In this document: positions 8,421 through 33,977 of the stretch, piece by piece
Layout: the number at the start of each line of letters is the position of its first letter
Position numbering within the stretch: position 1 is the stretch's first letter
DNA from: Candidatus Woesearchaeota archaeon
GTDB lineage: Archaea > Nanobdellota > Nanobdellia > SCGC-AAA011-G17 > GW2011-AR17
DNA length: 34,680 bases
Direction of reading: 5' to 3'
NCBI GenBank assembly: GCA_964473075.1
Contig: CAYYMN010000006.1
Location: forward strand, 1-34,680
Translations under genes and position numbers: made by a program
Notes under the pieces: model-generated
The model's database searches: none
Seen by the model: only the letters and a program-made list of their open reading frames with translations
What the model was told of the DNA's origin: nothing

Positions 8421-8881
8421 TTTCTGTTGTATGAAGTCCAAATGGTTCGTTCATTTTTTTTCAGTAATACACCAATATCATGATATGAAAGTGATTTGCT
8501 CTCGTGGAGATATTTGACAATAGTTTTCATAGGAGGGATTTTATCAGAAAAGATGTCTAGAGGGATTTGAAGTTCTGATTTTAGGGATTTTAATTTTGAA
8601 GGATATTTCTTTTTTGTATTAGTATAAGTGTGCCAGAGATTTTTTTCGTTGCGTTTTAGAATAAGAGAAATTTCATGCAGGGTCAGATCTTTTTCTTCTT
8701 TAAGATATTTTACGATTGATTCCAATGGTGTGAGTTTATTATTAAAAATTGAAATGGGAATAAAGGGTTTGTTTAAATCATCTAATAGTTGCTGCAGGTA
8801 TTGTTTGATTTGGGTTTCATTAAGGTTTAGGCGAGTCTGCAAAGTAGTAAGAATCTCATTAGAATAATTCACCCCTGGCAT
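8417..8881 (-). CDS. tandem helix-turn-helix protein (two sigma-70 region 4 / LuxR-like HTH repeats)
   Basis: 154 aa with an internal duplication: IPISIFNNKLTPLESIVKYLKEEKDLTLHEISLILKRNEKNLWHTY versus IPLDIFSDKIPPMKTIVKYLHESKSLSYHDIGVLLKKNERTIWTSY. Its stop overlaps the start of the giant protein gene (ATGA at 8417-8420). Confidence 0.5.
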   Translation of the reverse strand: MPGVNYSNEILTTLQTRLNLNETQIKQYLQQLLDDLNKPFIPISIFNNKLTPLESIVKYLKEEKDLTLHEISLILKRNEKNLWHTYTNTKKKYPSKLKSLKSELQIPLDIFSDKIPPMKTIVKYLHESKSLSYHDIGVLLKKNERTIWTSYNRK

Positions 8882-9510: not shown

Positions 9511-11148
9511 ATGGAGCAAGAGATTAGAAAGTATGCTTTGCACAATGCTTTGAAGTATAATGGAAAGGCTAATTCTGGGGCTGTAGTCGGGCAAATATTT
9601 TCTACTCATCCAGATTTGAAAAAGAAGGCTGGGGAGATTATCAAACTTGTGAATGAGATTGTTTTGAAAGTGAATAAACTCAATGTTGAAGAGCAAAAAA
9701 AAGAATTAAATAAAATTGCACCAGAATTATTAGAAGAAAAAAAAGAAAGAAAGAAAAAAGAATTGCCAGAATTAAAAAATGTCAAAGGAAAGGTTATTAC
9801 AAGGCTGCCACCAGAACCATCAAAGTATATTCATTTAGGGCACGCAGTTTCGTTCATAATTAATTATCTTTATGCGAAGAAGTATAATGGAAAATGTGTT
9901 CTGAGGTTTGATGATACGAATCCAGAAAAAGCTAAGAAAGAATATTATGATGCTGTTGAAAAAGATTTGAAGTGGTTGAAAATAGATTATGATTCAAAAA
10001 TTATTGCTTCTGAGCACATGGAAGAATTCTATAAATATGCAGAGCAGATGATTAAAAATGATGAGGCTTATGTATGCTTTTGTGAGAAGGAAACAATGAG
10101 AAACTTTAGAGAGAAGAGTAAAATCTGTGATCATAGGCAACATAAAGAAAAAGAGAACTTGGAATTTTGGAAAGGGATGCTGAAGGGGAAGTTTAAGGAG
10201 GGAAAAGCTACATTAAGGCTCAAAGGGGATATGAGTAATGGAAATGCGGTCATGAGAGATCCAGTTTTATTCAGGATTGTAGAGAAAGCGCATGCATTAA
10301 CAGGGAAGAAATACAAGGTTTGGCCAATGTATGATTTTGAGACAGCTGTCGGGGAGGAAATTGCTGGGGTCACGCATATTTTCAGAAGCAATGAATTCGG
10401 AGAGATGAGAATAGAGCTACAAGATTATATCAAAGATTTATTGAAGTTCAAGAAGCAAGAAGTGTTGCAGTATGGGAGAGTTTCTGTGAATGGGTATGAG
10501 ATGCAAGGAAGGGTGATGAAAGAAAAAATTGAGAGGAAAGAAGTTGAAGGATGGGATGATCCGAGGTTGATGACGATTATGGCGCTGAGAAGGAGAGGAA
10601 TAGTACCGGAAACCTTTCATGAACTTGCATTAGAAGCTGGATTGTCTGCTACGCCGACGAATTTAGACTGGAGTGTGGTTGCGGCGATTAATAGGAAGAT
10701 TATTGATCCAATTGCAAAAAGGTATTTCTTTGTGAGGGATGCAAAAAAAATTAAAATTGAAAATTCTGTGAATAGTGTGAAGGTGTCTGTGCATCCAGAG
10801 AATAAAGAGTTAGGAATGAAGACAATTAAAATTGGAAAAGAGTTTTATGTGCAGGATGAGATCAAGAAAGGGATTGTATACAGATTCATGCATTTGTTTA
10901 ATTTTAAAGATGCAAAGTTTGTTTCTCAGGAGTATGAACAGAAGTTAGGGGCGAAAATTATTCATGCTGTGCCTGTTGAGGATTCAATTGATGTCCAAGT
11001 ATTAATGGATAATGGAAAAATAATCAAAGGAAAAGGAGAAGGGGCACTTAGAGATTTGAAAGAAGGAGAAATTGTGCAGTTTGAGAGGATGTTCTTTGCG
11101 CGATTGGATGATAAGAAGAAAATGTTGTTTGTGTATGCGCATGATTAA
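9511..11148 (+). CDS. gltX: glutamyl-tRNA synthetase, archaeal/eukaryal type
   Basis: It has the class I HIGH motif (HLGHAV) and an archaeal GluRS-like N-terminus (IRKYALHNALKYNGKANSGAVVG). The ATG at 9511 is preferred over the track start at 9460. Confidence 0.85.
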   Translation: MEQEIRKYALHNALKYNGKANSGAVVGQIFSTHPDLKKKAGEIIKLVNEIVLKVNKLNVEEQKKELNKIAPELLEEKKERKKKELPELKNVKGKVITRLPPEPSKYIHLGHAVSFIINYLYAKKYNGKCVLRFDDTNPEKAKKEYYDAVEKDLKWLKIDYDSKIIASEHMEEFYKYAEQMIKNDEAYVCFCEKETMRNFREKSKICDHRQHKEKENLEFWKGMLKGKFKEGKATLRLKGDMSNGNAVMRDPVLFRIVEKAHALTGKKYKVWPMYDFETAVGEEIAGVTHIFRSNEFGEMRIELQDYIKDLLKFKKQEVLQYGRVSVNGYEMQGRVMKEKIERKEVEGWDDPRLMTIMALRRRGIVPETFHELALEAGLSATPTNLDWSVVAAINRKIIDPIAKRYFFVRDAKKIKIENSVNSVKVSVHPENKELGMKTIKIGKEFYVQDEIKKGIVYRFMHLFNFKDAKFVSQEYEQKLGAKIIHAVPVEDSIDVQVLMDNGKIIKGKGEGALRDLKEGEIVQFERMFFARLDDKKKMLFVYAHD

Positions 11149-11810
11149 ATGATTTCTATTATTTCACCAATTTTTTTTGTACATTTGTATAAGCGAGCAG
11201 GTCTATGTGAAACACCTTCTGTAAATTCATTAGTTGGTTCAACCAATTCTAGACCAAAAATCTTTTTTCTAAAGTTTCTTTTGTCAAAAGGATGATTAAA
11301 TATTATTTCATATAGTCCCTGAAGCTGTGTTAGTGTGAACTTTTTTGATAGTAATTGGAATGCAATAGTAGTATATTCTAACTTCCATCTTAATCTTAAC
11401 AAAGCATAATCAAGGATCTTCTTATGATCAAATGCCAATTGAGGAAGACTATAAGCTGAGAACCATTTCGCTTCTGAGACATCAGTACTTCCTTTGATAG
11501 TTTGATTTTCAGAATTGATTAAAGCAAAATAAGCTACTGTAATTATTTGGCCTCTAGGATCTCTTTTAGGTTCACCAAAAGTATATAACTGTTCCAAGTA
11601 AATATCTTTTACACCAGTTTCTTCAACTAATTCTCTCTTTGCAGCTTCATCTAAGGATTCTTGTTCCTTAAGAAAACCACCTGGAAGAGCCCACATTCCT
11701 TTGAAAGGTTCAATTGCCCTTTTAATCAGTAAAACTTTTAGATCTTCATTTTGCACAGAAAAAATAATTATATCAACTGTTACAGATGGTTTGAAATAAT
11801 CTTTGGACAT
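11145..11810 (-). CDS. nrtR: NrtR-like Nudix hydrolase fused to a C-terminal winged-helix domain (putative NAD-regulon regulator)
   Basis: 221 aa. It has an intact Nudix box (GGFLKEQESLDEAAKRELVEETGV) followed by a ~90 aa C-terminal domain (LEYTTIAFQLL...FTLTQLQGLYEII...KRNFRKK) characteristic of NrtR. It sits beside the NAD genes. Confidence 0.7.
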   Translation of the reverse strand: MSKDYFKPSVTVDIIIFSVQNEDLKVLLIKRAIEPFKGMWALPGGFLKEQESLDEAAKRELVEETGVKDIYLEQLYTFGEPKRDPRGQIITVAYFALINSENQTIKGSTDVSEAKWFSAYSLPQLAFDHKKILDYALLRLRWKLEYTTIAFQLLSKKFTLTQLQGLYEIIFNHPFDKRNFRKKIFGLELVEPTNEFTEGVSHRPARLYKCTKKIGEIIEII

Positions 11811-11861
11811 AATGTTATTAAAACAATAAGCTATTTAAATGTTATTATAATTGTAAAAAAT

Positions 11862-13349
11862 ATGGTTACAATTTTATTCCCTGGTAGGCATCACATGCTT
11901 ACAAAGTTTCAATATAGTTATCTGAGAAGCATTATTGATCAAGGAATTAAAGGAAAAAAAGTGGATAGAATTATCTTTGCAATCACTTCAGCAGATCATG
12001 CAAATACAAGAAGAAATCCTATTCCATTATATCTAAGAGTATTAGCCATAGATAAATTTTCAAGAGACTTACCATGTGAAATTAAAATTTATGCCATTCC
12101 AGATGTCAAAAATACGAATAAATTTGCAGAATATTTATTACACCAAGTTGAATTCCAAGGAGAAGAAAAATTAACTCCAAAGAATACAATTTTAGCTTGT
12201 TCAACACCAGAGGTCATAAGATTATTTAAGAAATTGAAGTTTGAGAATCTTCCAGTAGAATTAATTAATGAAAAAAAAGAGAAGTATTCAACATTAAGAC
12301 CATTCGAAGTCATAAATCTTTTAGTAAAGGAAGGAAATAAATGGAGAACAGAAATAGAATGGAAAGAATATGCTTCTCAATCCTCACAGGATGTATATTT
12401 AGAATATAATTTGGGAACATGTATTATTGAATTGTTTAAAGATTCGGTAATCAGCGAGGATGCAAATATTACTGAGACCAGAGATTATAATAGTTATGCT
12501 CGAGGAATGGATCAAAATATTATTTTTAAATTTAATGATATAAAACCTTTTGTTGTAGAAGGAAAAATTGTGGATTCAGGATGTGGAACTGGTTCTTTAG
12601 TTTGGCATTTATCCCAGGAGTTCAAGGAATCAGATATAATTGGAATAGAGGCTACAAGAAATTTTTATGAGTACTGCAAATTGCAACAATATCCGAACCC
12701 GTTTGTTTTCTTCTACAGAAAAAATATTTTAGATCAAAATTTTAAGGAAAATACAATTAATACATTTATTTATTCTTCAGTCTTGCATGAAATCTATTCT
12801 TACATAGGTGTTGATGCTCTTAGAAAATTGTTAAAAAGAACTCATATACAATTAGCACACAAAGGAAGAATAGTAATAAGAGATGTTGTTGGACCCGAGA
12901 ATGGAAATAAAAAAGTATTGATGGAATTAAATGAAAAAGATGGGAAAAAAACAGGGGATATAAAGGTTCTTTCTACTTATGCAAAATTCTATAAATTTGT
13001 TAAGGATTTTATTCCAAGAAAAATTAAATTAAAAGAAATAAAAATTGAAAATAAGAAATTTATTGAACTCACATTAAAAGATGCTTATGAATATATGAGC
13101 AAGATGAATTATATTGACAACTGGCATAGTGAGATGCATGAAGAGTTTGGATTTTGGAGTTTTAGTGATTGGAAAAAGGAATTAAAAAAGGCTGGATTTG
13201 AAATAGTTTATGGCTCACACCCTTTCAAAAGTGATTATATTATTGAAAAAATGTATAAAGGAAAAGTTTCGTTATTTGAAAAAAGAGGTAAAAACTTAGT
13301 CCCATTTGATTATCCTCCAACAAATATGATACTCGCAGGAGAAAAATAA
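11862..13349 (+). CDS. fusion protein: NMNAT-like nucleotidyltransferase-fold N-domain plus class I SAM-dependent methyltransferase
   Basis: I take the start at the ATG at 11862 (MVTILFPGRHHMLTKFQ). The N-domain has a degenerate GRFxPxHxGH-like motif and a CSTPEVIR (SxTxxR-like) motif. The C-domain has SAM motif I (VDSGCGTGSL). Confidence 0.5.
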   Translation: MVTILFPGRHHMLTKFQYSYLRSIIDQGIKGKKVDRIIFAITSADHANTRRNPIPLYLRVLAIDKFSRDLPCEIKIYAIPDVKNTNKFAEYLLHQVEFQGEEKLTPKNTILACSTPEVIRLFKKLKFENLPVELINEKKEKYSTLRPFEVINLLVKEGNKWRTEIEWKEYASQSSQDVYLEYNLGTCIIELFKDSVISEDANITETRDYNSYARGMDQNIIFKFNDIKPFVVEGKIVDSGCGTGSLVWHLSQEFKESDIIGIEATRNFYEYCKLQQYPNPFVFFYRKNILDQNFKENTINTFIYSSVLHEIYSYIGVDALRKLLKRTHIQLAHKGRIVIRDVVGPENGNKKVLMELNEKDGKKTGDIKVLSTYAKFYKFVKDFIPRKIKLKEIKIENKKFIELTLKDAYEYMSKMNYIDNWHSEMHEEFGFWSFSDWKKELKKAGFEIVYGSHPFKSDYIIEKMYKGKVSLFEKRGKNLVPFDYPPTNMILAGEK

Positions 13350-13350: not shown

Positions 13351-13797
13351 TTATTCATTAATCCAATTTTTAATTTGATTTGCAAGATCTTGTAAAGAGT
13401 AAACAATCTTTACTTCAGGTCTAATAAGACTAGTTTGAATTTCAACATCTTTTCTTCTTTTATAATTCGGATGTACACCTATGAATAAAATTTTACTATT
13501 TGCACTTTGTTTGCCAAGTTCATAAAGGGTTATTGGGCAAAGTGTTTCCTCAGTAAACCAAAAAGAAACTGCAGAAGCCTTATTCAAATGTTCATATTCC
13601 CATTTAATTTGCTCTTGTTCAAGATTAGTATTATTTTCTGAATAAAATCTTCTTCTGGGATTAAGTAGTGTTAAGTTCAAATCCTTTAGTAAAAAAACAA
13701 ACTCTTGTTGCCAATTACTACATCCACTAATTCCACCAGCTAAAAATAAAGACTTTTCTTTTCCGGAGAAAATTTCAGGACATTCGATATATTTCAT
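13351..13797 (-). CDS. nucleoside 2-deoxyribosyltransferase-like protein
   Basis: 148 aa with LFLAGGISG...W near the N-terminus and a LYELGK motif carrying a candidate catalytic Glu. Its start forms an ATGA overlap with the nadK stop (13794-13797). Confidence 0.45.
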   Translation of the reverse strand: MKYIECPEIFSGKEKSLFLAGGISGCSNWQQEFVFLLKDLNLTLLNPRRRFYSENNTNLEQEQIKWEYEHLNKASAVSFWFTEETLCPITLYELGKQSANSKILFIGVHPNYKRRKDVEIQTSLIRPEVKIVYSLQDLANQIKNWINE

Positions 13798-14564
13798 ACT
13801 ACCACCACCTTTAAAGGTTTATCAGAAAGTTTTATTTCAACTTGATCCCCAGTATTAAAATCATATATGGAATCATTAATTGCAACTATACTACCAGAAT
13901 CACGAGTGGATTCAATGGAGAGCTTTTCGTCAACAAGTATTTCACCATTTAATATTGAAGGAATAAAAATTCTTTCACCAAAATAAGGTTCTCTTATTAT
14001 AAAACTAAGCTTTTTTTCGGAATAATGAAATGGTTTTCCACCAGCTGAAAGAAACCAAGCTTTAGAACCAGAGCCTGTAGAAACGAGAACTCCAGAACTT
14101 CTTTGTTCTTCAATTTTATCTTTATAATTGATCTTATATCTAGAGGTATGAAATTGAGAGGCTGCTCCAATATAAACTTCGTTGATTGCTTTCTCAGGAA
14201 GAATTTTATTATTTAATTTAATTTCTGCTCTTTGTCTTTCAATAATATTAAAATTATTTTGTAATAGTTTTTGGAGTTTATCAATTTCTTCTATTCTAAT
14301 TGAAGTTAATGCACCTTCACTAGTTTCGGGATTGGAATTTATACCAAAAATTAATGAATCTTCAATTAAATGAGCAGCTTTTACAAAGGTACCATCACCA
14401 CCAATAGTAATAACTAAATCAATTTCTAGTAAATCTTCTTTTTTTAGATTATTAAAAGCAATTATTTTTATTTTACTTCCTGGGAAAAAAAGATTTATTT
14501 TTTCAATTACCTCAGACCCTAAATGGAGATTATTTTTTAATAAAATTGCGATTTGTTCAAACAT
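13794..14564 (-). CDS. nadK: NAD kinase
   Basis: It has the GGDGT motif (VITIGGDGTFVKAAH) and an NEVYIG motif. The ATG at 14564 is preceded by GGAGGG. The track start at 14576 is a TTG. Confidence 0.8.
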   Translation of the reverse strand: MFEQIAILLKNNLHLGSEVIEKINLFFPGSKIKIIAFNNLKKEDLLEIDLVITIGGDGTFVKAAHLIEDSLIFGINSNPETSEGALTSIRIEEIDKLQKLLQNNFNIIERQRAEIKLNNKILPEKAINEVYIGAASQFHTSRYKINYKDKIEEQRSSGVLVSTGSGSKAWFLSAGGKPFHYSEKKLSFIIREPYFGERIFIPSILNGEILVDEKLSIESTRDSGSIVAINDSIYDFNTGDQVEIKLSDKPLKVVVV

Positions 14565-15495
14565 TTTTCCCTCCAATTTTTGTAAATTGCCTTTGATTTT
14601 TATAACTATCTACTATGGAATCTAACAGATTTAAACTTGAAATAACTGATTCTTTGGCCATACAAACATCATCCCCAAGCATAAAAGTTCTATAGCCCAT
14701 TAACAAAGAACCATAAACATCAGTTATATCCGTGCATGAAGGTTCTAAACTTGTAGCCAAAGAATTAAATATTCTAGATGCAAGAATAGCATTAGGATCT
14801 TTGCTTAAAATTTCATGCATTGCAGCAACAATCAAATGAGGTCTTGAAACTTCAACAAATAAATCTCCTCTTGCAGTTAATAGTCTTACATTCTCTGACC
14901 ATTCATTTCTAACATAAGACAAACCTTTAGGGGATTCTATCTTTGCAACAAGATTCGAATCAGGAACAATTTTTTTAAAATTAGTAATATCAATTGAAGA
15001 TTCTACAAAAGAAAGCATATAATTTTTTAGGCCTAATTTTTCTGCAGCTTCGATATATCTTTTATCAGTATCAGTCAGAAAACCATTTATCAACAATGAA
15101 GGATCTGGAATATTCAATGATTCCCCTGGACCAATTACTCTTCTAGGACCTTCTAAGAAAATTAATTTATTTTCATTTACAGCAACTAATGTAGCACATT
15201 CTTGACCATCATGAAAATATGCAGTAGTAGGAACATTGACTTGAATTGGATGGCTGACTTCAACTTCTGTGAAAGGTGGAACCCAATAACCTTTGACTCT
15301 AAGCTGACGAGCTTTAAGATCTATCCAAAGTTCTTTTGGGGAACAAATTTCTTTTAATCTACTCAATAAATCTTCTAAAGAATCTTTTATAGGCATAACT
15401 GTATTTAATCTAACTCCAGAGACTAATGGATGTGATACAACCTCTTTAATGAAAGGTGCATAAGGGGGGATTGTTACAATTGCATTTGGTTTCAT
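14557..15495 (-). CDS. truncated, divergent pyruvate-kinase-like TIM-barrel protein (A plus short B domain, no C-terminal domain)
   Basis: 312 aa that aligns by eye to PK motifs: AIVTIPP/SGVRLNT (GMNVARLNFSHG region), WIDLKARQLR (DTKGPEIR), LTDTDKRYI (TEKD), VAKIESPKGL (KIEN), TARGDLFVEV (ARGDLGVEI) and PSCTDITDV...FMLGDD (PTRAE..DV..MLSGE). Confidence 0.55.
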   Translation of the reverse strand: MKPNAIVTIPPYAPFIKEVVSHPLVSGVRLNTVMPIKDSLEDLLSRLKEICSPKELWIDLKARQLRVKGYWVPPFTEVEVSHPIQVNVPTTAYFHDGQECATLVAVNENKLIFLEGPRRVIGPGESLNIPDPSLLINGFLTDTDKRYIEAAEKLGLKNYMLSFVESSIDITNFKKIVPDSNLVAKIESPKGLSYVRNEWSENVRLLTARGDLFVEVSRPHLIVAAMHEILSKDPNAILASRIFNSLATSLEPSCTDITDVYGSLLMGYRTFMLGDDVCMAKESVISSLNLLDSIVDSYKNQRQFTKIGGKNV

Positions 15496-15522
15496 TTTTT
15501 TACCTCCAAAAAATAAAAAAAA

Positions 15523-16476
15523 TTATGGTGTAAGCAGCTTACTTTTCCTCGAAGCTTGAACACCAATTACTTGCGACTTTGTTGAGCCTGCATTAGGGAC
15601 ATAACGAATGGATTGCAAAACAGCATTCATATCTGCAGGATCTTGCCTTGCAGAAAGGTTTTTAGTATAATCACCAAATTGACCAAAATGTTTTGCAATA
15701 ATTCCCATTGCAACATCTACAGCTCTTTCCGCAGAAGGAAGTTCGATAATTTTCTCTACACCAAAAACTGATTCCCATTGTTCACGGATAATACTTTCCT
15801 CTTGATCCCGAGAATAAGGTTTTCTAAGCATATAGATATTGAATTTTCTATTAAGCTCATGCCACATAGTTCTTGCGTCTAAATCAGATTCTTGGATGTC
15901 TCCGATTAATGTACTTACTTGATCAGAACTTACTTTTTCATAGAAGCCTTCATCACCAAACATAATCAAGAAAGGTGATCTAGCATTAGGCATTCTTACA
16001 TGGGTGTTCATAAAATGGCCAAACAATTCATAAGTCTCTCTGCCTTGACCTCCTCCACCACCTTCTGCTGCAAGAGCTCTAATATGGTCATCTAAAACTG
16101 GACCCTTTCCAAAACTATTTATTTGTAATGGATAGCTATCACAGTTTGCATCACCAATTGCACAGAAAGAAATTTCTAAATCTGGTTTATACTGACTCAA
16201 TGTTTGATAAAGCAATGGAAGCCTATCAAATATTTCTGCTGGCCAGTGTGCCATTGAACCGGTTACATCAATTCCAACAACAATTGGATTTTCACTTGCA
16301 GTCTCAAGAATTTTATTCAATGGACTAACTAAAGACCAGTCCGGATCTGTTCTTCTGCTGTAGGTTCTAGGTTTTGCAGTTGATGCATTTTTGTCTAAGT
16401 AAGCTCGTCTTGCAGGATCATAATTATATGCCTGCGGTTTTTTCCAAGTCGATGTGTCATTTCCCCAACTATACAT
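15523..16476 (-). CDS. von Willebrand factor A (vWA) domain protein
   Basis: It has a MIDAS-like motif, VVGIDVTGSM (a DxTxS variant of DxSxS), in a Rossmann-like context. The ATG at 16476 is preceded by GGAGG. The track start at 16500 is a GTG. Confidence 0.6.
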   Translation of the reverse strand: MYSWGNDTSTWKKPQAYNYDPARRAYLDKNASTAKPRTYSRRTDPDWSLVSPLNKILETASENPIVVGIDVTGSMAHWPAEIFDRLPLLYQTLSQYKPDLEISFCAIGDANCDSYPLQINSFGKGPVLDDHIRALAAEGGGGGQGRETYELFGHFMNTHVRMPNARSPFLIMFGDEGFYEKVSSDQVSTLIGDIQESDLDARTMWHELNRKFNIYMLRKPYSRDQEESIIREQWESVFGVEKIIELPSAERAVDVAMGIIAKHFGQFGDYTKNLSARQDPADMNAVLQSIRYVPNAGSTKSQVIGVQASRKSKLLTP

Positions 16477-16530
16477 TTTATTCCTCCTGATACAGCTCAC
16501 GCTATATCGATCTTCATTATTTTTTTCTGT

Positions 16531-17295
16531 TTAGGCAGAATGACGTCTTCCAAACACATTCTGTCTTATGTCTGACAAGCGCCCAACCAAATCAGTTTTT
16601 TCCCAATTAGGGCGCAAGATGGGATCATTTTGAACTAATTCTTCACAAAAGTCAATAATAGGTTTTGGAACATGTTGAGGGAAAGTTCTACCAATTGCAT
16701 CCCCACCCAAAGCATAAATCATTACAATTCCTGCACCATACAAATCAGATTCAGGAATTGGAGGAGAACCAGCTTTTAATTCTGGAGCTGCAAAAGCATC
16801 TGTATAACCAATTGCTTTAGTAGAATCAATGGGTTTGTTTGCAGAGAGACCAAAGTCAATTAATACAGCATTATGAATTTTTGGTTGTAAAATAATATTT
16901 TGTGGCTTAACATCAGAATGAATTATACCATTTGCATGCAAGTAATGGAGAACTCCAAATAAACGTTGCATTATCCAACAAACATCTTCGGGATGAATGG
17001 CTTTATGTTTCTCAATTACTTTATCTAAAGTTTTTCCCTCAATAAAACTCATAGCAATGGCATAACTACCATCACCAACAGCAAAATAATCTTTCATTGA
17101 AGGAAGAGAATAATGACCCAGATTCCAAAGTAGTCTTGCTTCTCTACGAAGTAATTCAGCATCGACAGGAGTAATATTAATATTTTGTTTTAGGCAAACT
17201 CTTTCTTCAAGTAAAATATGTTTAGCCTCATAAGTTCTTGCAAAACCACCTTCACCAATTTGTCTTAAAATTGTATAGTTTCCAATAGTTGTCAT
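16531..17295 (-). CDS. Hanks-type serine/threonine protein kinase, catalytic domain only
   Basis: It has the G-loop GEGGFARTY, VCLK, the catalytic loop HSDVKPQNIIL, DFGLS and an APE-like FAAPE. Its start forms an ATGA overlap with the stop of the NMNAT-like gene (17292-17295). Confidence 0.85.
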   Translation of the reverse strand: MTTIGNYTILRQIGEGGFARTYEAKHILLEERVCLKQNINITPVDAELLRREARLLWNLGHYSLPSMKDYFAVGDGSYAIAMSFIEGKTLDKVIEKHKAIHPEDVCWIMQRLFGVLHYLHANGIIHSDVKPQNIILQPKIHNAVLIDFGLSANKPIDSTKAIGYTDAFAAPELKAGSPPIPESDLYGAGIVMIYALGGDAIGRTFPQHVPKPIIDFCEELVQNDPILRPNWEKTDLVGRLSDIRQNVFGRRHSA

Positions 17296-17909
17296 TTTTT
17301 GCCTCCTATTGCTTGCATTTCTTCAGAAGTATTTTTTGGGCTAGAATAATCTGAAACTAGAAGAGATAATGTGTATAAACCAAACTCATTTTGAAATCTT
17401 TCAACAAGATGATTTGATTTTAAGTAATCAAAAACTTCCTTAGGAACTAAACCATTCCAATCAATATTCATAGCCATTGCAATTCGAACATCTGTACCCG
17501 AAAGAGGAACCCTTTTTTCTAAAGGAATAAATTCTAATGGATGCCTGCAATCATATTGTTCAGATAAAAGTTCTCGAACATAATCATTCCCAGAAACAAA
17601 TAGATCTAAATTTCCAAATTGAGAAATAATTTCTTGTTTCCATCTTTGTCCATCATTATATTTAGGGATATGACCAAAATCTGGAATAAACCTAAAAGAA
17701 TAATTTGAGAATCTTGAAGATAGGAAAGAATCAATCATAGATTTAACTTCTTCTGCAGTAAATGGATTTCTCTCGTCATATCTGTTGATACTACCAATTC
17801 CAATAATCAAATGGTCAGAAATTTCACAGAGAGATTCTAACATAGCTGCTGAACTATTGTGCAAAGGTCTAAACCTTCCAATTACTCCAATCCTAGAGTA
17901 TAGTTTCAT
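17292..17909 (-). CDS. nicotinamide/nicotinate mononucleotide adenylyltransferase-like protein (archaeal NadM type, variant motif)
   Basis: 205 aa. IGVIGRFRPLHNSS occupies the position of GRFQPFHxGH, and SGTDVRIAM occupies the position of the SGTxIR motif. Its start forms an ATGA overlap with the Nudix gene stop (17906-17909). Confidence 0.55.
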   Translation of the reverse strand: MKLYSRIGVIGRFRPLHNSSAAMLESLCEISDHLIIGIGSINRYDERNPFTAEEVKSMIDSFLSSRFSNYSFRFIPDFGHIPKYNDGQRWKQEIISQFGNLDLFVSGNDYVRELLSEQYDCRHPLEFIPLEKRVPLSGTDVRIAMAMNIDWNGLVPKEVFDYLKSNHLVERFQNEFGLYTLSLLVSDYSSPKNTSEEMQAIGGKK

Positions 17910-18334
17910 TTTCCCTCCTTGTATTTTAAATATTCATCAATGATTCTACAATGATCAAAAACTAGAGAATTTTTTAGAGCTCTAACTTCATCAAGTGAGT
18001 AAAGCTTTGCTTCCTTTGCATCATCACCAGCCTTTAGAATTCCAGAACCAGTTGCAATAAAAGTCACTGAAACCATATGATATCTTGGATCTCTTGTTGG
18101 AGAAGAAAATACACACAAAGGATGTTCAGGAGTTTGAATTTTTACTTCCAATCCAGTTTCTTCAAGTGATTCTTTAATTGCATTTTCTTCCAAAGTTAAA
18201 CCATACTCTGCATGTCCCCCTGGAAGAGCCAAACCTAATGGATGATATTTTCTTTCAATTAAAATAATTCCATCTTTAGTTCCATCATTGTATTCAATTA
18301 TTATGTCTGTAGATAAAAATGGAAGTCTATGCAT
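17906..18334 (-). CDS. Nudix hydrolase
   Basis: It has the Nudix box GGHAEYGLTLEENAIKESLEETGLEV. The ATG at 18334 is preceded by GGAGGT. The longer track ORF overlaps the 3' end of nadE. Confidence 0.75.
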   Translation of the reverse strand: MHRLPFLSTDIIIEYNDGTKDGIILIERKYHPLGLALPGGHAEYGLTLEENAIKESLEETGLEVKIQTPEHPLCVFSSPTRDPRYHMVSVTFIATGSGILKAGDDAKEAKLYSLDEVRALKNSLVFDHCRIIDEYLKYKEGK

Positions 18335-19238
18335 TTTGAGACCTCCTATATAACAAAGAAACAGGTGCAATAGGCGGATGTATAATTCTTGCTTTTGCAT
18401 TAGCAATATCATGGCGTCTTAAAACATCATCAACCATTGCTTCTACAGAAGAAAATTTTGCAGTTTTGAACAATGAAGAATATCTCTGAGAATCAGTTCC
18501 ACCTAGGATTTGAACTTGAGGATTGACAATTAATTTTTCTCTAGAGAAGTTTTGATAAACTCCTTCTAAGACTAACTCTACAAAATCATAACTATATCCG
18601 AGATCTCCAAAGTCAGTTTGATTAAGTTCTAAACCTGCAGTTGGTTCTCTTCTTGCAATATTCTCAAATCCTAAATATGAAGCAATAGCTTTTACATGGC
18701 GCTTAGGAAGATTTCCAATTGGACTAATGTGAACAGCACCATCACCAAATAAAGTATAGTAACCAATCCCAAAGTCTTCGTCTCTATTTCCTGTTCCTGA
18801 TAGAACTTTATTTTCAGTTGCGGCTTTTGTAGAGAGTACATTTGCTCTTATTCTAGAAATCATATTACCCTTGTCATAAGAATTTTGAAAGGATTCTGGA
18901 TTTGTGAATCTATGAGCTTCAACCAAAGGTTCCAGATTCTGAACTTCGTATCTTATTCCTAATTTTTCTGCAATTTCAATCCCATCTTTCGTATCATTTT
19001 CATTGTTAACTTTGGAGGGAAGGATGTAACCCACTAATTCTAAACTTGTACTATGAGAAACATTGTATAAATCAAAAGCTCTCTTAATAATCGCCACAGT
19101 AGTTGTTGAATCAACACCACCAGAGAGACCAATAACACAACCTGTACTATTTCTTTGAATACATGTATTGACAACGAAATCTCCAATTTCTTGAATAACT
19201 TGTTCAAGATTTATTTCGGATAAAATTATTTTTGACAT
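18327..19238 (-). CDS. nadE: NH3-dependent NAD+ synthetase
   Basis: It has the PP-loop SGGVDS (VIGLSGGVDSTTT). At 303 aa it has no glutaminase domain. Confidence 0.85.
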   Translation of the reverse strand: MSKIILSEINLEQVIQEIGDFVVNTCIQRNSTGCVIGLSGGVDSTTTVAIIKRAFDLYNVSHSTSLELVGYILPSKVNNENDTKDGIEIAEKLGIRYEVQNLEPLVEAHRFTNPESFQNSYDKGNMISRIRANVLSTKAATENKVLSGTGNRDEDFGIGYYTLFGDGAVHISPIGNLPKRHVKAIASYLGFENIARREPTAGLELNQTDFGDLGYSYDFVELVLEGVYQNFSREKLIVNPQVQILGGTDSQRYSSLFKTAKFSSVEAMVDDVLRRHDIANAKARIIHPPIAPVSLLYRRSQNA

Positions 19239-19239
19239 T

Positions 19240-19953
19240 TTAGAACCTCCTCAATTTTGTTTCTAAACCTGCGATTACATCATCAGTAGAAACTAATTTT
19301 GCACCAGCTTGAACCATTTCTTCCAAAGCTTTTTTAGTGCTTTCAGGAAAAACTCCTTTGATTGCATCGCTCACAACATAAGTTTGAATTCCTAAATTTT
19401 GCATTCCTAAAACTGCTGCTTTCACACAATAATCTGTTGCAACTCCATAAACAATAGCCGATGAAACTTTTGCTCTTTCTAAAAAAGGTTTAACATTTGG
19501 ATTTGAGAATACATCATAATTCTGCTTTTCAAAATAGATTCCTCTTTGAGGGAGTTCATTCAATTTTTTTAAGCCTTCATTAATTAATTCATCATCAATC
19601 TCAGATCCTGAAAAATTGGGGATATAAAACGCAGTAGAGTAACCATCTAATGAACCAATACTTGGAGCTCTTGATAAAATAGTTTGATAAATCCTCCATT
19701 GACCTGTAGTTCCATCCATACAGTGATCTGGAAAAGGACCACCATTGCGACTTAATTCACTTTCAACATCACTAAATTCTTTTGTACCAAAATGTCTATC
19801 AACAGAACCTAAAACAAAAATATTATTCTGTCTTGCATAATCAGTAAGTCTCAATAGATTTGGTTTTATCGATTCTGCATCAGATACATATAATGCCCCA
19901 TTTGCATCCATAAAATCTCTTTGTGTGTCTTCATCCCAGAAGATTGTTTTCAT
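19240..19953 (-). CDS. pncA: nicotinamidase (isochorismatase superfamily)
   Basis: It has the FPDHCMDGTTG metal/substrate motif typical of PncA and the catalytic Cys context GVATDYCV. The ATG at 19953 is preceded by GGAGGT. Confidence 0.8.
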   Translation of the reverse strand: MKTIFWDEDTQRDFMDANGALYVSDAESIKPNLLRLTDYARQNNIFVLGSVDRHFGTKEFSDVESELSRNGGPFPDHCMDGTTGQWRIYQTILSRAPSIGSLDGYSTAFYIPNFSGSEIDDELINEGLKKLNELPQRGIYFEKQNYDVFSNPNVKPFLERAKVSSAIVYGVATDYCVKAAVLGMQNLGIQTYVVSDAIKGVFPESTKKALEEMVQAGAKLVSTDDVIAGLETKLRRF

Positions 19954-19954
19954 T

Positions 19955-21289
19955 TTATTGACCTCCATACTGTTTTGATAATGATTCAGTAAGTGTGATC
20001 AAACCTTCAGAAGGAATTGCTTCGTATTTGCTTTGAAAACCAATTCTTTTTTTATCCTCTGGCAACATACTAACTTGATGCTGAGTATATTCTCTAATTT
20101 TTAGAAGAGATCTTCTTTGAGAAACTCTTATTCCATTTTCTACAACTTTTTCTAATAGTGGAGTCCCATTAGGAATTACTTCGGATTCCAAAGCAATAAT
20201 ATCCCTAATAAAAATTCCATCCTCATCCGAAATTCTATAGACTTGTTTTTTTCCAGGATATGTTTTTTTGCATGCGGATAATTTTATTTTTCCACCATCT
20301 TCATCTTCAACAAGTTTGTAAACTCCTGAAATTGCTGCAACAGGTTTTCCAGTAATATTTTCTGTACCAACACCATAACCAGAAACTGAATGACCTTGAA
20401 GTGCTTCTATTTTGTATTCATTTAAATCATTAGTCGCAAATATTCCAACATAAGAAAGACCTTGTTCATCTAAAATTTTTCTTACTAAATCTGATTTTTC
20501 AGCTAATGGATCTGAATCTATTCTTACTGATTTTAATCTAAACCCTTTTTCTTCTAATTCTTTTCCAACAATTGCAGCATTTCTAGCACCTTTTTCTACA
20601 TCATAAGTATCTATCAACAAAGTTGAGTTTAAAGGAAAAGTTTTTGCGTAGGCTCTAAATGCTTCAAGTTCATCTTTAAAACTCATAACAAAACTATGTG
20701 CATGAGTCCCAGCAATTGGAATATTATATTCAATTCCAGCTTTGACATTGCTAGTTCCTGAAAAGCCAGCAATATATGAAGCTCTTGCACCTAACATTGC
20801 AGCATCTTCGCCTTGAGCTCTTCTTAATCCAAATTCAACAACAGGTGCACCTCTTGCTGCATTAACAATTCTATTTGCCTTTGAAGCAACCATTGTCTGA
20901 AAGTTAATTATATTAAGAAGTGTGGATTCCAAGAACTGAGCTTGTGGAAGTGTTGAAGTTACACGAAGTAAAGGCATATTTTCTGTTATTAATGTACCTT
21001 CTTTTACAGCATAAATTTCTCCTTCAAATTTAAAATCTTTCAAAGTTTGTAAAAATTCTTCTGGTAAAGGAGTTCTTGTTCTAAGTTCTTCAATATCTTC
21101 TTCTGAAAAGCTTAAACTAGTAGCATAATTGATTGCATCTTCAATTCCACAGGCAATAAAATAATTCCAATCATCCGGTAATTTTCGGATAAATAAATCA
21201 AAAGTAGCTTTGCCACACTTAGCATTATCTTCATAAGCAGCATTCATTGTTAATTGATATAAATCAGTAAGCATAGTTTTGTTCTTCAT
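19955..21289 (-). CDS. pncB: nicotinate phosphoribosyltransferase
   Basis: 444 aa with the N-terminus MLTDLYQLTMNAAY typical of NAPRTase. GGAGG lies upstream. Confidence 0.85.
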   Translation of the reverse strand: MKNKTMLTDLYQLTMNAAYEDNAKCGKATFDLFIRKLPDDWNYFIACGIEDAINYATSLSFSEEDIEELRTRTPLPEEFLQTLKDFKFEGEIYAVKEGTLITENMPLLRVTSTLPQAQFLESTLLNIINFQTMVASKANRIVNAARGAPVVEFGLRRAQGEDAAMLGARASYIAGFSGTSNVKAGIEYNIPIAGTHAHSFVMSFKDELEAFRAYAKTFPLNSTLLIDTYDVEKGARNAAIVGKELEEKGFRLKSVRIDSDPLAEKSDLVRKILDEQGLSYVGIFATNDLNEYKIEALQGHSVSGYGVGTENITGKPVAAISGVYKLVEDEDGGKIKLSACKKTYPGKKQVYRISDEDGIFIRDIIALESEVIPNGTPLLEKVVENGIRVSQRRSLLKIREYTQHQVSMLPEDKKRIGFQSKYEAIPSEGLITLTESLSKQYGGQ

Positions 21290-32441: not shown

Positions 32442-32477
32442 TTAACTTTTTGATATTTTTTCTTTTTCGTGATTTTT

Positions 32478-33830: not shown

Positions 33831-33977
33831 TTAATGTTTGGCTAATTCTTTCAAAAGATGTTTATCTTCTCTTAAAACAACTTCACTTGCAATCTTAACT
33901 AATTCTAATATTTTCTTATCATTTGCAGATATTTCATATACCATTTTTTTAGTTTTTTTTATTTGTTCCATTCTCAT
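33831..33977 (-). CDS. small helical protein (48 aa) translationally coupled downstream of the Doc-like gene
   Basis: Hand translated as MRMEQIKKTKKMVYEISANDKKILELVKIASEVVLREDKHLLKELAKH. Its ATG forms an ATGA overlap with the Doc-like stop (33974-33977). Confidence 0.35.
   Translation of the reverse strand: MRMEQIKKTKKMVYEISANDKKILELVKIASEVVLREDKHLLKELAKH

What the first reader, a model, noticed from the sequence alone, without database searches (positions are those of the whole stretch)
14557..17295. Ser/Thr kinase, vWA protein and a C-terminally truncated pyruvate-kinase-like protein embedded inside the NAD operon
None of these three consecutive genes belongs to any textbook NAD pathway. 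Yet they sit in the middle of the operon and are translationally linked to it: the kinase start overlaps the NMNAT-like stop as ATGA, and the nadK start overlaps the PK-like stop. The kinase plus vWA pairing recalls the TerY-type vWA / kinase / PP2C phosphatase signalling triads described in bacteria, but no phosphatase is present here. The PK-like protein keeps the residues aligned with the PK Lys/Glu/Asp catalytic positions (KIES, ARGD) and the RLN phosphoenolpyruvate-site motif. It has a shortened lid and no regulatory C-domain, and several signature positions have changed (GDLF for GDLG, SRIFNSL for TQMLESM, LGDD for LSGE). Two readings are possible. The trio may be a phospho-signalling or energy-supplying submodule that controls NAD synthesis. 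Alternatively, the whole island may be a so far undescribed NAD-homeostasis or defence-related system.
Basis: partly seen in the sequence, partly recalled or inferred. Interest (0 to 1): 0.7.

Follow-up and report, generated by a model that had tools for sequence, protein, structure and literature searches.

The report
Kinase, vWA adaptor and mini pyruvate kinase cassette
Three genes sitting inside an archaeal NAD-salvage operon (a protein kinase, a metal-binding vWA adaptor and a pyruvate kinase lacking its regulatory domain) are a conserved, undescribed cassette that also occurs in bacteria, in huge phages and elsewhere on archaeal chromosomes, and it probably links phosphoenolpyruvate-driven phosphotransfer to NAD synthesis.

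Summary
On the minus strand lie a Hanks-type Ser/Thr kinase (16531-17295), a vWA-fold protein with an intact MIDAS motif (15523-16476) and a pyruvate kinase (PK) A+B-domain protein with no C domain (14557-15495). They sit between a NadM-like NMNAT and NadK, with overlapping stop and start codons.

The trio is a real cassette, not a local oddity. In Woesearchaeota-type loci, vWA sits next to PK-like in 50/50, the kinase in 40/41 and the NMNAT-like gene in 40/40. Bacteria keep NMNAT-like, vWA, PK-like and often NadE, but drop the kinase. Twenty-one large viral contigs carry kinase-vWA-PK-like with no NAD genes nearby. A second copy, whose kinase has a J domain, lies among housekeeping genes in the same archaeal genome assembly. 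About 200 mycobacteriophages carry the kinase-vWA pair only.

Where the kinase is present, the vWA protein ends in a disordered Lys/Ser/Thr tail. Where it is absent, in 10 of the roughly 18 bacterial tails examined, a zinc ribbon takes its place.

The PK-like protein keeps the PEP, Mg2+ and phosphate-binding residues.

Best guess (about 0.4): a vWA-adapted, kinase-regulated minimal pyruvate kinase that couples PEP-derived phosphoryl or ATP supply to NAD(P) synthesis. It is not a TerY-P triad and matches no known defence system. The function is untested and I found no description of it.

The parts
16531..17295 (-). Hanks-type Ser/Thr protein kinase, 254 aa, kinase domain only (non-RD: HSD). It is the member of the cassette-specific kinase family.
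   Evidence: Pfam Pkinase E=7.6e-33. The catalytic motifs are read from the translation. It is 47% identical over its full length to the kinase domain of the J-domain kinase of the stand-alone cassette in L108. A kinase lies upstream of vWA in 40/41 archaeal and 21/21 viral loci.
15523..16476 (-). vWA-fold protein, 317 aa, the hub of the cassette. It has a conserved N-terminal arm (MYSW...RTY), a vWA core and a helical C-terminal region.
   Evidence: AlphaFold2 pLDDT 88 and Foldseek hits to integrin beta-I/vWA domains. It has no Pfam family and matches only phrog_2971, E=3e-23. The family has 1720 representatives at the 50% cluster level.
16255..16269 (-). MIDAS-type metal-site motif D70-V-T-G-S74 of the vWA protein.
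   Evidence: Invariant across archaeal, bacterial, huge-phage and mycobacteriophage homologues. G108-D109...D113, E138-GGGG and G174-D175 are invariant with it.
15526..15585 (-). Disordered Lys/Ser/Thr-rich C-terminal tail of the vWA protein (...SRKSKLLTP), the inferred kinase target or docking site.
   Evidence: pLDDT is below 50 from residue 298. A tail motif [ST]K.L[L] is found in kinase-containing archaeal and viral loci and is replaced by a CxxC...CxxC zinc ribbon in 10 kinase-less bacterial loci.
14557..15495 (-). Pyruvate-kinase-like protein, 312 aa: TIM-barrel A domain plus a shortened B lid, with no C domain.
   Evidence: PF00224 43.6 bits. A PDB profile search hits pyruvate kinases at E=1.5e-16. 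AlphaFold2 pLDDT 94 with TM-score (query-normalised) 0.72-0.80 to PKs. Invariant residues include T8, P11, R29, N31, D59, K61, R66, K185, E187, D211 and S240.
17292..17909 (-). NadM-like (archaeal-type) NMNAT, 205 aa. It is the constant upstream partner of the cassette in cellular NAD loci. It has HNSS in place of HxGH.
   Evidence: NCBIfam PRK01153 78.8 bits, below the cut-off of 127, and Pfam CTP_transf_like 22.4 bits. It is adjacent in 40/40 archaeal and 12/14 bacterial loci. Bacteria keep HLGH, while the four archaeal sequences inspected have lost the second His.
13794..14564 (-). Divergent NAD kinase whose start overlaps the PK-like stop.
   Evidence: Pfam NAD_kinase and NAD_kinase_C, weak hits. 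NCBIfam NAD kinase models score below their cut-offs. The junction is shown.
17906..21289 (-). Upstream NAD-salvage genes of the same operon: NAPRT (19955-21289), PncA nicotinamidase (19240-19968), NH3-type NadE (18327-19238) and Nudix hydrolase (17906-18412).
   Evidence: The same order is seen in L001, L003 and many other loci.
13351..13797 (-). Nucleoside 2-deoxyribosyltransferase-like protein, the last gene of the operon.
   Evidence: PF15891 E=1.5e-17.
11145..11810 (-). NrtR (Nudix domain plus winged-helix domain), the likely ADP-ribose-responsive regulator of the locus.
   Evidence: PF21906 NrtR_WHD E=4e-24 plus NUDIX. NrtR is present in 25/40 archaeal loci.

Best explanation
The three genes form a mobile, co-evolving cassette built around the vWA protein.

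Inferred mechanism:
1. The PK-like protein is a catalytically competent pyruvate kinase that lacks the C domain. It takes the phosphoryl group of phosphoenolpyruvate and most probably passes it to a nucleoside diphosphate, making ATP or another NTP.
2. Having lost the allosteric and tetramerisation domain, it works with the vWA protein. That protein's MIDAS face and conserved N-terminal arm act as adaptor or regulatory subunit. They tether the mini-PK to an ATP-consuming client enzyme.
3. The Ser/Thr kinase sets the state of the complex by phosphorylating the disordered Lys/Ser/Thr tail of the vWA protein.

In this window the cassette copy has been inserted next to a NadM-like NMNAT. In that position PEP availability and PEP-derived ATP are coupled to the ATP-requiring steps of the operon: NAPRT, NMNAT, NadE and NadK.

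Shown here: gene identities, folds, retained catalytic residues, recurrence and co-transfer of the genes, and covariation between the kinase and the vWA tail.

Inferred only: the enzymatic acceptor, physical complex formation, the kinase substrate, and the physiological coupling to NAD synthesis.
For: Cassette is real.
- vWA-like lies next to PK-like in 50/50 archaeal, 16/19 bacterial and 21/21 viral loci.
- The kinase is present in 40/41 archaeal and 21/21 viral loci.
- In viral loci these three are the only genes conserved across contigs.
- One archaeal genome assembly carries two copies: L020 in the NAD operon and L108 among LeuRS, enolase, eIF2alpha, ribosomal proteins, FtsZ and TIM.
- All three components behave as paralogues that move together. 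PK-like is 37% identical between the two copies in that assembly. The window's own kinase is 47% identical to the kinase of the L108 copy.

PK-like is probably active.
- The fold matches PK domains A and B.
- Residues invariant across archaea, bacteria and phage align with the PK positions I know as PEP, Mg and phosphate ligands. These are RLN, D59-x-K61...R66 (aligned with DTKGPEIR), K185-I-E187, R209-G-D211 and S240 (aligned with the catalytic Thr), plus T8 and P11 of the CTIGP motif.
- The family is about 60% identical within Woesearchaeota and 50-55% identical between archaea and bacteria, which points to strong purifying selection.

vWA as adaptor.
- The MIDAS motif and neighbouring acidic and Gly loops are invariant.
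- Family members from microbial eukaryote transcriptomes or short contigs are fused to U-box or Nudix domains. This behaviour is typical of a recognition module.

Kinase acts on the vWA tail.
- The tail motif tracks kinase presence, and a zinc ribbon replaces it in kinase-less bacteria.
- Precedent: the C terminus of the archaeal vWA protein ArnB is the site phosphorylated by the kinases ArnC and ArnD (PMC6509490).

Link to NAD.
- The NadM-like NMNAT is adjacent in 40/40 archaeal and 12/14 bacterial loci, and NadE is present in 37/40 and 9/14.
- The genes are translationally coupled.

Link to glycolysis and the missing PK.
- Among 123 complete Woesearchaeales genomes, enolase is present in 122 but canonical pyruvate kinase in only 39 (bioRxiv 10.64898/2026.05.13.725050).
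- Two of the four stand-alone cellular copies examined lie near glycolytic genes. L108 is near enolase and TIM, and L113 is near GAPDH.
Against: - No biochemical data exist for any member.
- Several PK signature positions differ: FSHG becomes TVMP, T113 becomes L, E117 becomes Q, and MLSGE becomes MLGDD. The acceptor may therefore not be ADP.
- The equivalent of the lid lysine is ambiguous, because the MAFFT and HMMER alignments disagree.
- An 'ATP supply' role is hard to justify in respiring bacteria such as Chondromyces or Anaerolineae, which still keep the vWA-PK-like pair with the NMNAT.
- At least one Woesearchaeota locus (L059) also has a canonical-length PK next door, so the protein is not simply the only PK.
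- Mycobacteriophages carry kinase plus vWA without PK-like. The vWA protein therefore has a role independent of PK-like.
- The J domain on the stand-alone kinases is not explained by this model.
Confidence: 0.4

Rival explanations
1. Missing metabolic step. The PK-like enzyme, with the vWA protein as a subunit, uses PEP to phosphorylate a pyridine-nucleotide precursor or ribose phosphate rather than ADP. Candidate reactions are nicotinate or nicotinamide riboside to NaMN or NMN, ribose-1,5-bisphosphate to PRPP, or an ADP-ribose derivative. The product feeds the adjacent NadM-like NMNAT and NadE. This would be a new entry into NAD synthesis.
For: - The linkage NMNAT-like, vWA, PK-like, Gln-dependent NadE persists across distant bacterial phyla, with nothing else conserved.
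- No PRPP synthetase is present in the archaeal operon.
- Nucleotide-side PK signature positions are altered (S76/H77 equivalents become V/M).
- One family member is a vWA-Nudix fusion.
- NrtR and Nudix point to an ADP-ribose theme.
Against: - The same vWA-PK-like pair occurs with a kinase but with no NAD genes in the sequenced flanks, in 21 viral contigs and in housekeeping regions of cellular contigs.
- The archaeal operon already contains a complete nicotinamide to NADP route.
- The residues that bind the phosphates of the nucleotide in PK (R66, and T8/P11 of CTIGP) are retained.
- As far as I know, no vWA protein acts as a small-molecule enzyme subunit.
Confidence: 0.2
2. Pure signalling switch, working like a TerY-P triad or ArnA/ArnB. 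The vWA protein is a phosphorylation-controlled adaptor that binds and regulates NMNAT or other targets. PK-like acts as a PEP sensor, or as a PEP-dependent protein phosphotransferase that acts on the vWA protein. It takes the place of the PP2C phosphatase or of a second kinase.
For: - Kinase-vWA adjacency also occurs without PK-like in about 200 mycobacteriophages.
- The tail covaries with the kinase.
- Precedents are ArnB and TerY-P.
- U-box fusions suggest the vWA domain recognises protein targets.
- The N terminus of the vWA protein is conserved from residue 1 (MYSW), as expected for a docking peptide.
Against: - PK-like keeps the full catalytic set under strong constraint, even in bacteria that lack both the kinase and the tail. 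A sensor alone need not do so.
- No phosphatase or FHA reader is present in the cassette.
- As far as I know, PEP-dependent protein phosphorylation by a PK fold is not established in prokaryotes.
Confidence: 0.2
3. Conflict system. The cassette is a defence or counter-defence module tied to NAD depletion. It would sense ADP-ribose or NAD loss and restore NAD or ATP, which would explain its presence in huge phages.
For: - It occurs in 21 large viral contigs and in the 485-kb phage LR745208.
- An ADP-ribosylglycohydrolase lies within 8 kb in 9 of 22 viral loci.
- It is patchy and horizontally spread in bacteria.
- The kinase resembles defence kinases in PADLOC.
Against: - PADLOC has no model matching the vWA or PK-like proteins, and its kinase hits are generic Pkinase similarity.
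- The cellular copies sit in conserved NAD-salvage operons or among ribosomal, translation and glycolysis genes, not in defence islands.
- The cassette is near-universal and syntenic in Woesearchaeota-type loci, which is unlike accessory defence genes.
Confidence: 0.1
4. The three genes are functionally unrelated neighbours kept together only by operon inertia. PK-like would be an ordinary glycolytic PK fragment and the vWA protein an unrelated protein.
For: Operons in small archaeal genomes can mix functions. PK-like is annotated simply as 'pyruvate kinase' by some sources.
Against: The same order recurs across archaea, bacteria and viruses at 30-60% identity, and the genes are duplicated and transferred together.
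Confidence: 0.03

Closest known systems
Canonical pyruvate kinase (PykF/PKM; Pfam PF00224 barrel plus PF02887 C-terminal domain)
   Same: It shares the A-domain TIM barrel with an inserted B lid (TM-score, query-normalised, 0.72-0.80). Residues aligning with the PEP, Mg2+ and phosphate ligands are retained: RLN, DxK...R, K-x-E, RGD, and Ser in place of the catalytic Thr.
   Different: It has no C (allosteric and tetramer) domain and its lid is about 35 residues shorter. Several signature motifs have changed. It scores 56.6 bits against the 306-bit cut-off of the TIGR01064 equivalog. It is always paired with a dedicated vWA protein.
TerY-P triad (TerY-like vWA, PP2C phosphatase and Ser/Thr kinase), as defined in PMC11090510 citing Anantharaman et al. 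2012
   Same: A three-gene cassette in which a Hanks-type kinase is coupled to a MIDAS-bearing vWA protein. It is mobile across genomes, and a phosphorylation-dependent switch is the proposed logic.
   Different: There is no PP2C; a PK-like enzyme occupies the third position. The vWA protein matches no Pfam VWA or TerY model. The kinase has no C-terminal zinc ribbon or OB fold. The context is NAD salvage or housekeeping, not restriction or tellurite loci.
ArnA/ArnB with kinases ArnC/ArnD of Sulfolobus acidocaldarius (PMC6509490)
   Same: An archaeal vWA protein with an intact MIDAS site whose C-terminal region is the target of Hanks-type kinases and controls partner binding.
   Different: ArnB has a beta-sandwich and a four-helix bundle, and is read by the FHA protein ArnA. 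Here the tail is short and disordered, no FHA protein is present, and the partners are a PK-like enzyme and an NMNAT. There is no detectable sequence relationship.
NrtR-controlled NAD salvage operons with NadM-Nudix (Rodionov et al. 2008, from my own knowledge; phage NadM/NadV systems in PMC9503650)
   Same: NAPRT, PncA, NadE, a NadM-type NMNAT, a Nudix hydrolase and an NrtR regulator are clustered. The NMNAT is 27-30% identical to phage NadM.
   Different: As far as I found, the known operons contain no kinase, vWA or PK-like genes. The Aravind-lab surveys of jumbo phages and viral NAD systems do not mention such a trio.
PrkA-YeaH(DUF444, vWA-like)-YcgB/SpoVR triad of bacteria (from my own knowledge, not tested here)
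   Same: A conserved three-gene set coupling a protein kinase to a vWA-like protein and a third protein of unclear role, linked to starvation physiology.
   Different: All three positions are filled by different families. PrkA is an AAA+-kinase fusion and the third gene is SpoVR-like, not PK-like. I did not test this comparison with the tools.

Membership tests
Pyruvate kinase family | PK barrel domain (PF00224) above the curated threshold | tested here: met
   43.6 bits against a cut-off of 30, covering profile positions 119-316 of 328. A family profile hits PDB pyruvate kinases at E=1.5e-16.
Pyruvate kinase family | Three-domain architecture with the C-terminal alpha/beta regulatory domain (PF02887) | tested here: not met
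   The protein ends at residue 312, right after the barrel. There is no C-domain hit. The model and the alignment with PykF show nothing beyond domain A.
Pyruvate kinase family | Equivalog-level similarity to functional PKs (NCBIfam TIGR01064 / PRK05826) | tested here: not met
   56.6 bits against a 306.4 cut-off, and 59.6 against 432.
Pyruvate kinase family | Catalytic Lys, Glu and Asp, the PEP-binding Arg and the proton-donor Thr | tested here: met
   K185, E187, D211 and S240 align with PykF K220, E222, D246 and T278. D59, K61 and R66 align with D66, K68 and R73. R29 and N31 match by motif. The functional roles of these residues come from my knowledge of PK structures.
Pyruvate kinase family | PEP + ADP -> pyruvate + ATP activity | not testable with these tools
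   This needs an enzyme assay.
von Willebrand factor A (vWA) domain | Rossmann-like vWA fold | tested here: met
   Foldseek probability 1.0 to integrin beta-I, CMG2, vWF-A3 and Ku80 vWA domains, with TM-score of only 0.35-0.48 normalised by the 317-residue query. The model has pLDDT 88.
von Willebrand factor A (vWA) domain | MIDAS motif DxSxS plus distal Thr and Asp | tested here: met
   D70-x-T72-G-S74 is invariant and G174-D175 is invariant. The distal Thr loop is replaced by E138-GGGGG. This is a variant MIDAS. Metal binding was not tested.
von Willebrand factor A (vWA) domain | Match to a curated vWA sequence model | tested here: not met
   There are no Pfam or NCBIfam hits. The best across 13 homologues is VWA_4, E=0.057, in a single member. 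Only phrog_2971, of unknown function, matches.
Hanks-type Ser/Thr protein kinase | Pkinase domain with Gly loop, VAIK Lys, HRD-type catalytic loop, DFG and APE | tested here: met
   PF00069 E=7.6e-33. The motifs GEGGFA, VCLK, HSDVKPQN, DFG and AAPE are in the translation.
TerY-P triad | PP2C phosphatase in the cassette | tested here: not met
   No PP2C is found in the operon or in the 30 window ORFs scanned. None is conserved in the related loci.
TerY-P triad | TerY-type vWA protein | tested here: not met
   No VWA or TerY model matches.
TerY-P triad | Ser/Thr kinase adjacent to the vWA gene | tested here: met
   Seen in 40/41 archaeal and 21/21 viral loci.
Known anti-phage defence systems (PADLOC-DB v2) | System-specific protein models for all components | tested here: not met
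   Only the kinase matches (PD-T4-6, mad6), through its generic kinase domain. The vWA, PK-like, NMNAT, NadK and NDT proteins have no hit.
NadM-type NMNAT (adjacent partner) | HxGH and SxTxxR nucleotidyltransferase motifs, and an equivalog-level score | tested here: inconclusive
   The window has HNSS in place of HxGH, and SGTDVR is present. The score is 78.8 bits against a cut-off of 127. Bacterial members keep HLGH.

The most novel reading that the evidence does not exclude
The vWA/PK-like pair is a previously unrecognised kind of PEP-dependent phosphotransferase system. A pyruvate-kinase fold without its C domain is handed by a MIDAS adaptor to specific clients, and it phosphorylates something other than bulk ADP. 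The acceptor would be either a pyridine-nucleotide or ribose-phosphate precursor, giving a new route into NAD in Woesearchaeota and several bacterial phyla, or the vWA protein or its client itself, giving PEP-driven protein phosphorylation. Huge phages would have captured the same device to reprogramme host energy or NAD metabolism.
Probability: 0.2. Interest if true: 0.9.

Novelty: new variant of a known kind. Interest (0 to 1): 0.74.

Why it matters
If the cassette is a vWA-adapted, kinase-regulated mini pyruvate kinase, several things follow.
- It would explain why about two thirds of complete Woesearchaeales genomes have enolase but no recognisable pyruvate kinase.
- It would change energy-budget inferences for DPANN archaea.
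- It would show a new way of regulating a central glycolytic enzyme in trans, through a vWA subunit and a protein kinase instead of an allosteric domain.

Its tight linkage to a NadM-like NMNAT in archaea and in bacteria suggests an unrecognised control point, or an unrecognised step, in NAD synthesis.

Its presence in huge phages and, as the kinase-vWA pair only, in about 200 mycobacteriophages would make it a candidate host-takeover module.

The vWA family has 1720 representatives at the 50% cluster level and includes U-box and Nudix fusions in eukaryote-derived sequences. It has no Pfam family and could be defined as one.

Tried and rejected
- Pfam and NCBIfam scans of the vWA protein and 12 homologues gave no family. 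A PDB sequence search with the family profile gave only a chance hit.
- PADLOC gave only generic kinase hits, so I rejected membership of a known defence system.
- Literature searches for the trio found no description. The searches covered PK-like with vWA and NAD, NrtR with NadM and PK, jumbo-phage surveys, viral NAD systems, and Woesearchaeota NAD salvage. A search for the PDB code 8IW2, a 321-aa 'pyruvate kinase' chain that matched the profile, found nothing relevant. A PDB search with the N-terminal 100 residues also gave nothing.
- I tried to decide whether the lid lysine of PK (PykF K156) is replaced. HMMER aligns it with G124 and MAFFT with R118, so I dropped the claim.
- The extra ~290-aa ORF between vWA and PK-like in about 19 archaeal loci has no Pfam or PDB match and no relation to the vWA profile. 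It is absent from the window, so I left it as a side note.
- I looked for further conserved neighbours in bacterial and viral loci by all-against-all clustering. None was found beyond NMNAT and NadE in bacteria. In viruses only sporadic ADP-ribosylglycohydrolase, Thg1 and EF-G appeared.
- Two bacterial loci (L079, L081) have PK-like without a vWA neighbour. In L081 a protein that looks HAD-like by eye lies upstream. I did not pursue this.
- I glanced at the promoter regions for a shared NrtR box and saw no convincing common palindrome by eye, so I did not pursue it.
- A tblastn search of phages with the NMNAT-like protein gave ordinary NadM hits. The huge phage that carries the trio was not among the 30 records shown.

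Full report
WHAT IS IN THE WINDOW

The window has about 32% G+C. It carries archaeal-type housekeeping genes: ribosomal L1 and L10, an archaeal/eukaryotic-type Glu/Gln-tRNA synthetase, NDK and an M50 protease. The closest relatives of its genes come from Woesearchaeota/Nanoarchaeia genome assemblies.

On the minus strand, from 21289 down to 13351, lies one tightly packed operon:
- NAPRT
- PncA
- NH3-type NadE
- Nudix
- NadM-like NMNAT
- Ser/Thr kinase
- a 317-aa protein with no family
- a 312-aa PK-like protein
- NadK
- a nucleoside-deoxyribosyltransferase-like protein

An NrtR regulator and a nucleotidyltransferase-like/methyltransferase fusion flank it.

The NMNAT and kinase genes overlap as ATGA at 17292-17295. 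The most plausible NadK start, an ATG at 14564 preceded by GGAGGG, overlaps the PK-like TGA. The vWA gene starts at the ATG at 16476, behind a GGAGG.

IDENTITY OF THE THREE PROTEINS

The kinase is a minimal Hanks-type kinase domain with all catalytic motifs.

The middle protein has no Pfam or NCBIfam match. A confident AlphaFold2 model (pLDDT 88) is recognised by Foldseek as a vWA or integrin beta-I-like domain. The probability is 1.0, although the TM-scores are modest. Its D-V-T-G-S MIDAS motif and three neighbouring acidic or glycine-rich loops are invariant from archaea to phages.

The third protein passes the Pfam threshold for the PK barrel. Its model has pLDDT 94 and superposes on domains A and B of many pyruvate kinases, with TM-score (query-normalised) 0.72-0.80. 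It lacks the C domain and has a shortened lid.

Residues invariant across archaeal, bacterial and phage members align with PykF K220, E222, D246 and T278 (here K185, E187, D211 and S240). They also align with the DTKGPEIR motif (here D59-L-K61-x-R-Q-L-R66), and the RLN and CTIGP-like motifs are kept. From my knowledge of PK structures, these are the PEP, Mg2+ and phosphate ligands. The protein therefore looks catalytically competent.

IS THE TRIO A UNIT?

Yes.

I fetched 80 genome loci through the PK-like protein and annotated them with the window's own proteins.

| Feature next to PK-like | Archaeal-type loci with enough flank |
|---|---|
| vWA gene | 50/50 |
| Kinase | 40/41 |
| NadM-like NMNAT | 40/40 |
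| NadE | 37/40 |

The gene order is the same as in the window.

The PK-like protein is also found at 50-55% identity in bacteria. Examples are Anaerolineae, Caldilineaceae, Chondromyces apiculatus DSM 436, Polyangia, Blastocatellia, Thermoanaerobaculaceae, Planctomycetota and Vulcanimicrobiota. In those loci the conserved set shrinks to NMNAT-like, vWA, PK-like and usually a glutamine-dependent NadE. The kinase is present in only 1 of 14 loci, and nothing else is conserved.

THE CASSETTE OUTSIDE NAD OPERONS

The vWA protein matches a phage family of unknown function, phrog_2971.

A tblastn search of phage genomes found the vWA and PK-like genes side by side in the 485-kb phage LR745208. They are preceded by a kinase fused to a J domain. 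Twenty IMG/VR contigs of 45-436 kb carry the same kinase-vWA-PK-like order. These three are the only genes shared by all of those contigs, and no NMNAT-like gene lies in the flanks.

About 200 cluster-C mycobacteriophages carry only the kinase-vWA pair.

Searching with the phage vWA protein then uncovered cellular copies of the J-domain cassette in four places:
- L108, in the same archaeal assembly that also has the NAD-operon copy (L020). It lies among LeuRS, enolase, eIF2alpha, ribosomal proteins, GINS, FtsZ and TIM.
- L112, an archaeal contig with RFC, Rpp14 and proteasome alpha.
- L113, 3 kb from GAPDH.
- L111, a contig with a bacterial-type infC-rpmI-rplT cluster.

The window's kinase is 47% identical over its whole length to the kinase domain of the L108 copy. 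The PK-like proteins of the two copies in that assembly (L020 and L108) are 37% identical.

The three genes therefore duplicate and move as a set. The copy in this window is a paralogue that lost the J domain and was inserted beside the NMNAT gene.

CLUES TO MECHANISM

First, the C-terminal end of the vWA protein covaries with the kinase.
- In kinase-containing archaeal and viral loci it is a low-confidence, Lys/Ser/Thr-rich tail that usually ends in [ST]K.L[L].
- In 10 kinase-less bacterial loci it is a CxxC...CxxC zinc ribbon.
- The one kinase-less archaeal locus lacks the motif.

This points to the tail as the kinase's target or docking site. In Sulfolobus, the C terminus of the vWA protein ArnB is likewise the part phosphorylated by ArnC and ArnD (PMC6509490).

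Second, the vWA family is large, with 1720 representatives at the 50% cluster level. It includes members fused to U-box domains and one fused to a Nudix domain. The Nudix fusion comes from a marine eukaryote transcriptome. Such fusions fit a recognition or adaptor domain better than an enzyme.

Third, the things that sit upstream of the vWA/PK-like pair in different settings are a protein kinase (often with a J domain) and an NMNAT. Both are ATP-using enzymes.

Fourth, a recent survey of 123 complete Woesearchaeales genomes reports enolase in 122 but canonical pyruvate kinase in only 39 (bioRxiv 10.64898/2026.05.13.725050). That leaves room for an unrecognised PK.

MOST LIKELY EXPLANATION (confidence about 0.4)

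PK-like is an active pyruvate kinase without a C domain. The vWA protein is its adaptor or regulatory partner. The kinase controls the pair through the vWA tail. The NAD-operon copy couples PEP-derived phosphoryl or ATP supply, or PEP status, to the NadM-like NMNAT and the other ATP-dependent steps.

Gene identities, folds, residue conservation, recurrence and covariation are shown. The acceptor substrate, the physical complex, the kinase target and the physiological coupling are inferred.

WEAK POINTS OF THIS MODEL

- Some nucleotide-side signature residues are changed.
- An ATP-supply role makes little obvious sense in respiring bacteria.
- At least one archaeal locus also has a canonical PK (L059).
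- The J domain is unexplained.
- Mycobacteriophages keep kinase and vWA without PK-like.

RIVALS

- A new PEP-dependent step feeding NaMN, NMN or PRPP into the pathway (0.2). This rival is favoured by the strict NMNAT-vWA-PK-like-NadE linkage in bacteria. It is disfavoured by the cassette copies that have no NAD genes nearby.
- A pure TerY-P/ArnB-like signalling switch, with PK-like as a PEP sensor or PEP-dependent protein phosphotransferase (0.2).
- A conflict or counter-defence module (0.1). The phage distribution and nearby ADP-ribosylglycohydrolases are suggestive. PADLOC has no match for vWA or PK-like, and the cellular contexts are housekeeping.
- Chance neighbourhood, which the census effectively excludes.

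COMPARISON WITH KNOWN SYSTEMS

The cassette works most like kinase-vWA switches (the TerY-P triad and ArnB) combined with a pyruvate kinase. It is not a member of TerY-P, because it has no PP2C and no TerY-type vWA. It is not a full member of the functional PK equivalogs, because it has no C domain and scores far below their cut-offs.

I found no description of the trio in the searchable literature. That includes two broad Aravind-lab surveys of jumbo phages and of viral NAD systems. This is absence of evidence in an open-access library, not proof of novelty.

VERDICT

It is a conserved, horizontally mobile kinase-vWA-mini-PK cassette spanning archaea, bacteria and large phages. One paralogue is wired into NAD salvage. 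I rate it a new variant of known kinds, with an untested function. Interest is about 0.74.

Noticed in passing
window 11751-13349 (+): A 532-aa protein has an N-terminal region that carries a nucleotidyltransferase-like motif (FPGRHHMLTKFQ), a central SAM methyltransferase domain and a C-terminal extension. It recurs next to the NAD operon in at least 12 related archaeal loci. It could be a pyridine or nucleotide methyltransferase of the same regulon.
   Followed up: partly
L001 7075-7965, L009 7305-8195 and about 17 other archaeal loci (alignment A4); absent from the window: A conserved ~290-aa ORF (about 65% identity, motifs GGRLVTTDW and HFISHLELQ) is inserted between the vWA and PK-like genes in roughly 40% of archaeal loci (19 of about 50). 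It has no Pfam or PDB match and may be a fourth, optional cassette component.
   Followed up: partly
L108 6870-9943 (GCA_043806035.1, contig JAZDHK010000023.1); also L111, L112, L113: A second, J-domain-kinase version of the cassette lies in cellular chromosomes among translation, replication and glycolysis genes (enolase, TIM, GAPDH nearby). In one case it is in the same assembly as the NAD-operon copy.
   Followed up: partly
Proteins P0270, P0368, P0317, P0349, P0283, P0332 (U-box) and P0352 (NUDIX, MMETSP transcript): Members of the vWA-like family are fused at the C terminus to U-box E3-ligase domains or to a Nudix domain. The Nudix fusion (P0352) comes from a marine eukaryote transcriptome (MMETSP). 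The U-box fusions are on short contigs of unrecorded origin.
   Followed up: partly
L086 (Mycobacterium phage Sebata gp260-gp261; about 200 Bixzunavirus genomes): A Ser/Thr kinase is followed by a homologue of the vWA-like protein, without PK-like. The pair lies near Pnk and a PurA-like '2-aminooxy adenylosuccinate synthetase'.
   Followed up: no
L085 14067-15251 and 8 other viral loci; L090 8924-11002; L085 11356-12249: In the large viral contigs the cassette often lies within 8 kb of an ADP-ribosylglycohydrolase (9 of 22 loci), a Thg1-like tRNA-His guanylyltransferase (5 loci) or an EF-G homologue directly downstream (4 loci).
   Followed up: no
L081 1680-2360: In a Polyangia assembly the PK-like gene has no vWA neighbour. 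Instead it follows an ORF that looks like a HAD-type (SerB-like) hydrolase, judged by eye from its motifs (DVDGT...SDSYSD) and not scanned against any family library. L079 also lacks a vWA neighbour.
   Followed up: no
window 17292-17909 compared with bacterial homologues: The four archaeal members of the NadM-like NMNAT family that I inspected (the window, L001, L003, L028) have lost the second His of the HxGH motif (HNSS, HIGG, HKGA, HMGA). The eight bacterial members inspected keep HLGH.
   Followed up: partly
window 4698-8441 (-): A 1247-aa ORF with no Pfam match at all.
   Followed up: no
window 22920-24590 (+), 33974-34567 (-), 32469-33341 (+): Elsewhere in the window are an ABC1/UbiB-type atypical kinase, a Fic/DOC-family protein and an IS-type integrase (rve). 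These are unrelated to the cassette, but they show further kinase or AMPylation genes and a mobile element nearby.
   Followed up: no
PDB chain 8iw2_A: A solved 321-aa chain named 'pyruvate kinase' aligns with the family profile over positions 28-278. It is therefore similar in length to the mini-PK. I could not establish its origin.
   Followed up: partly
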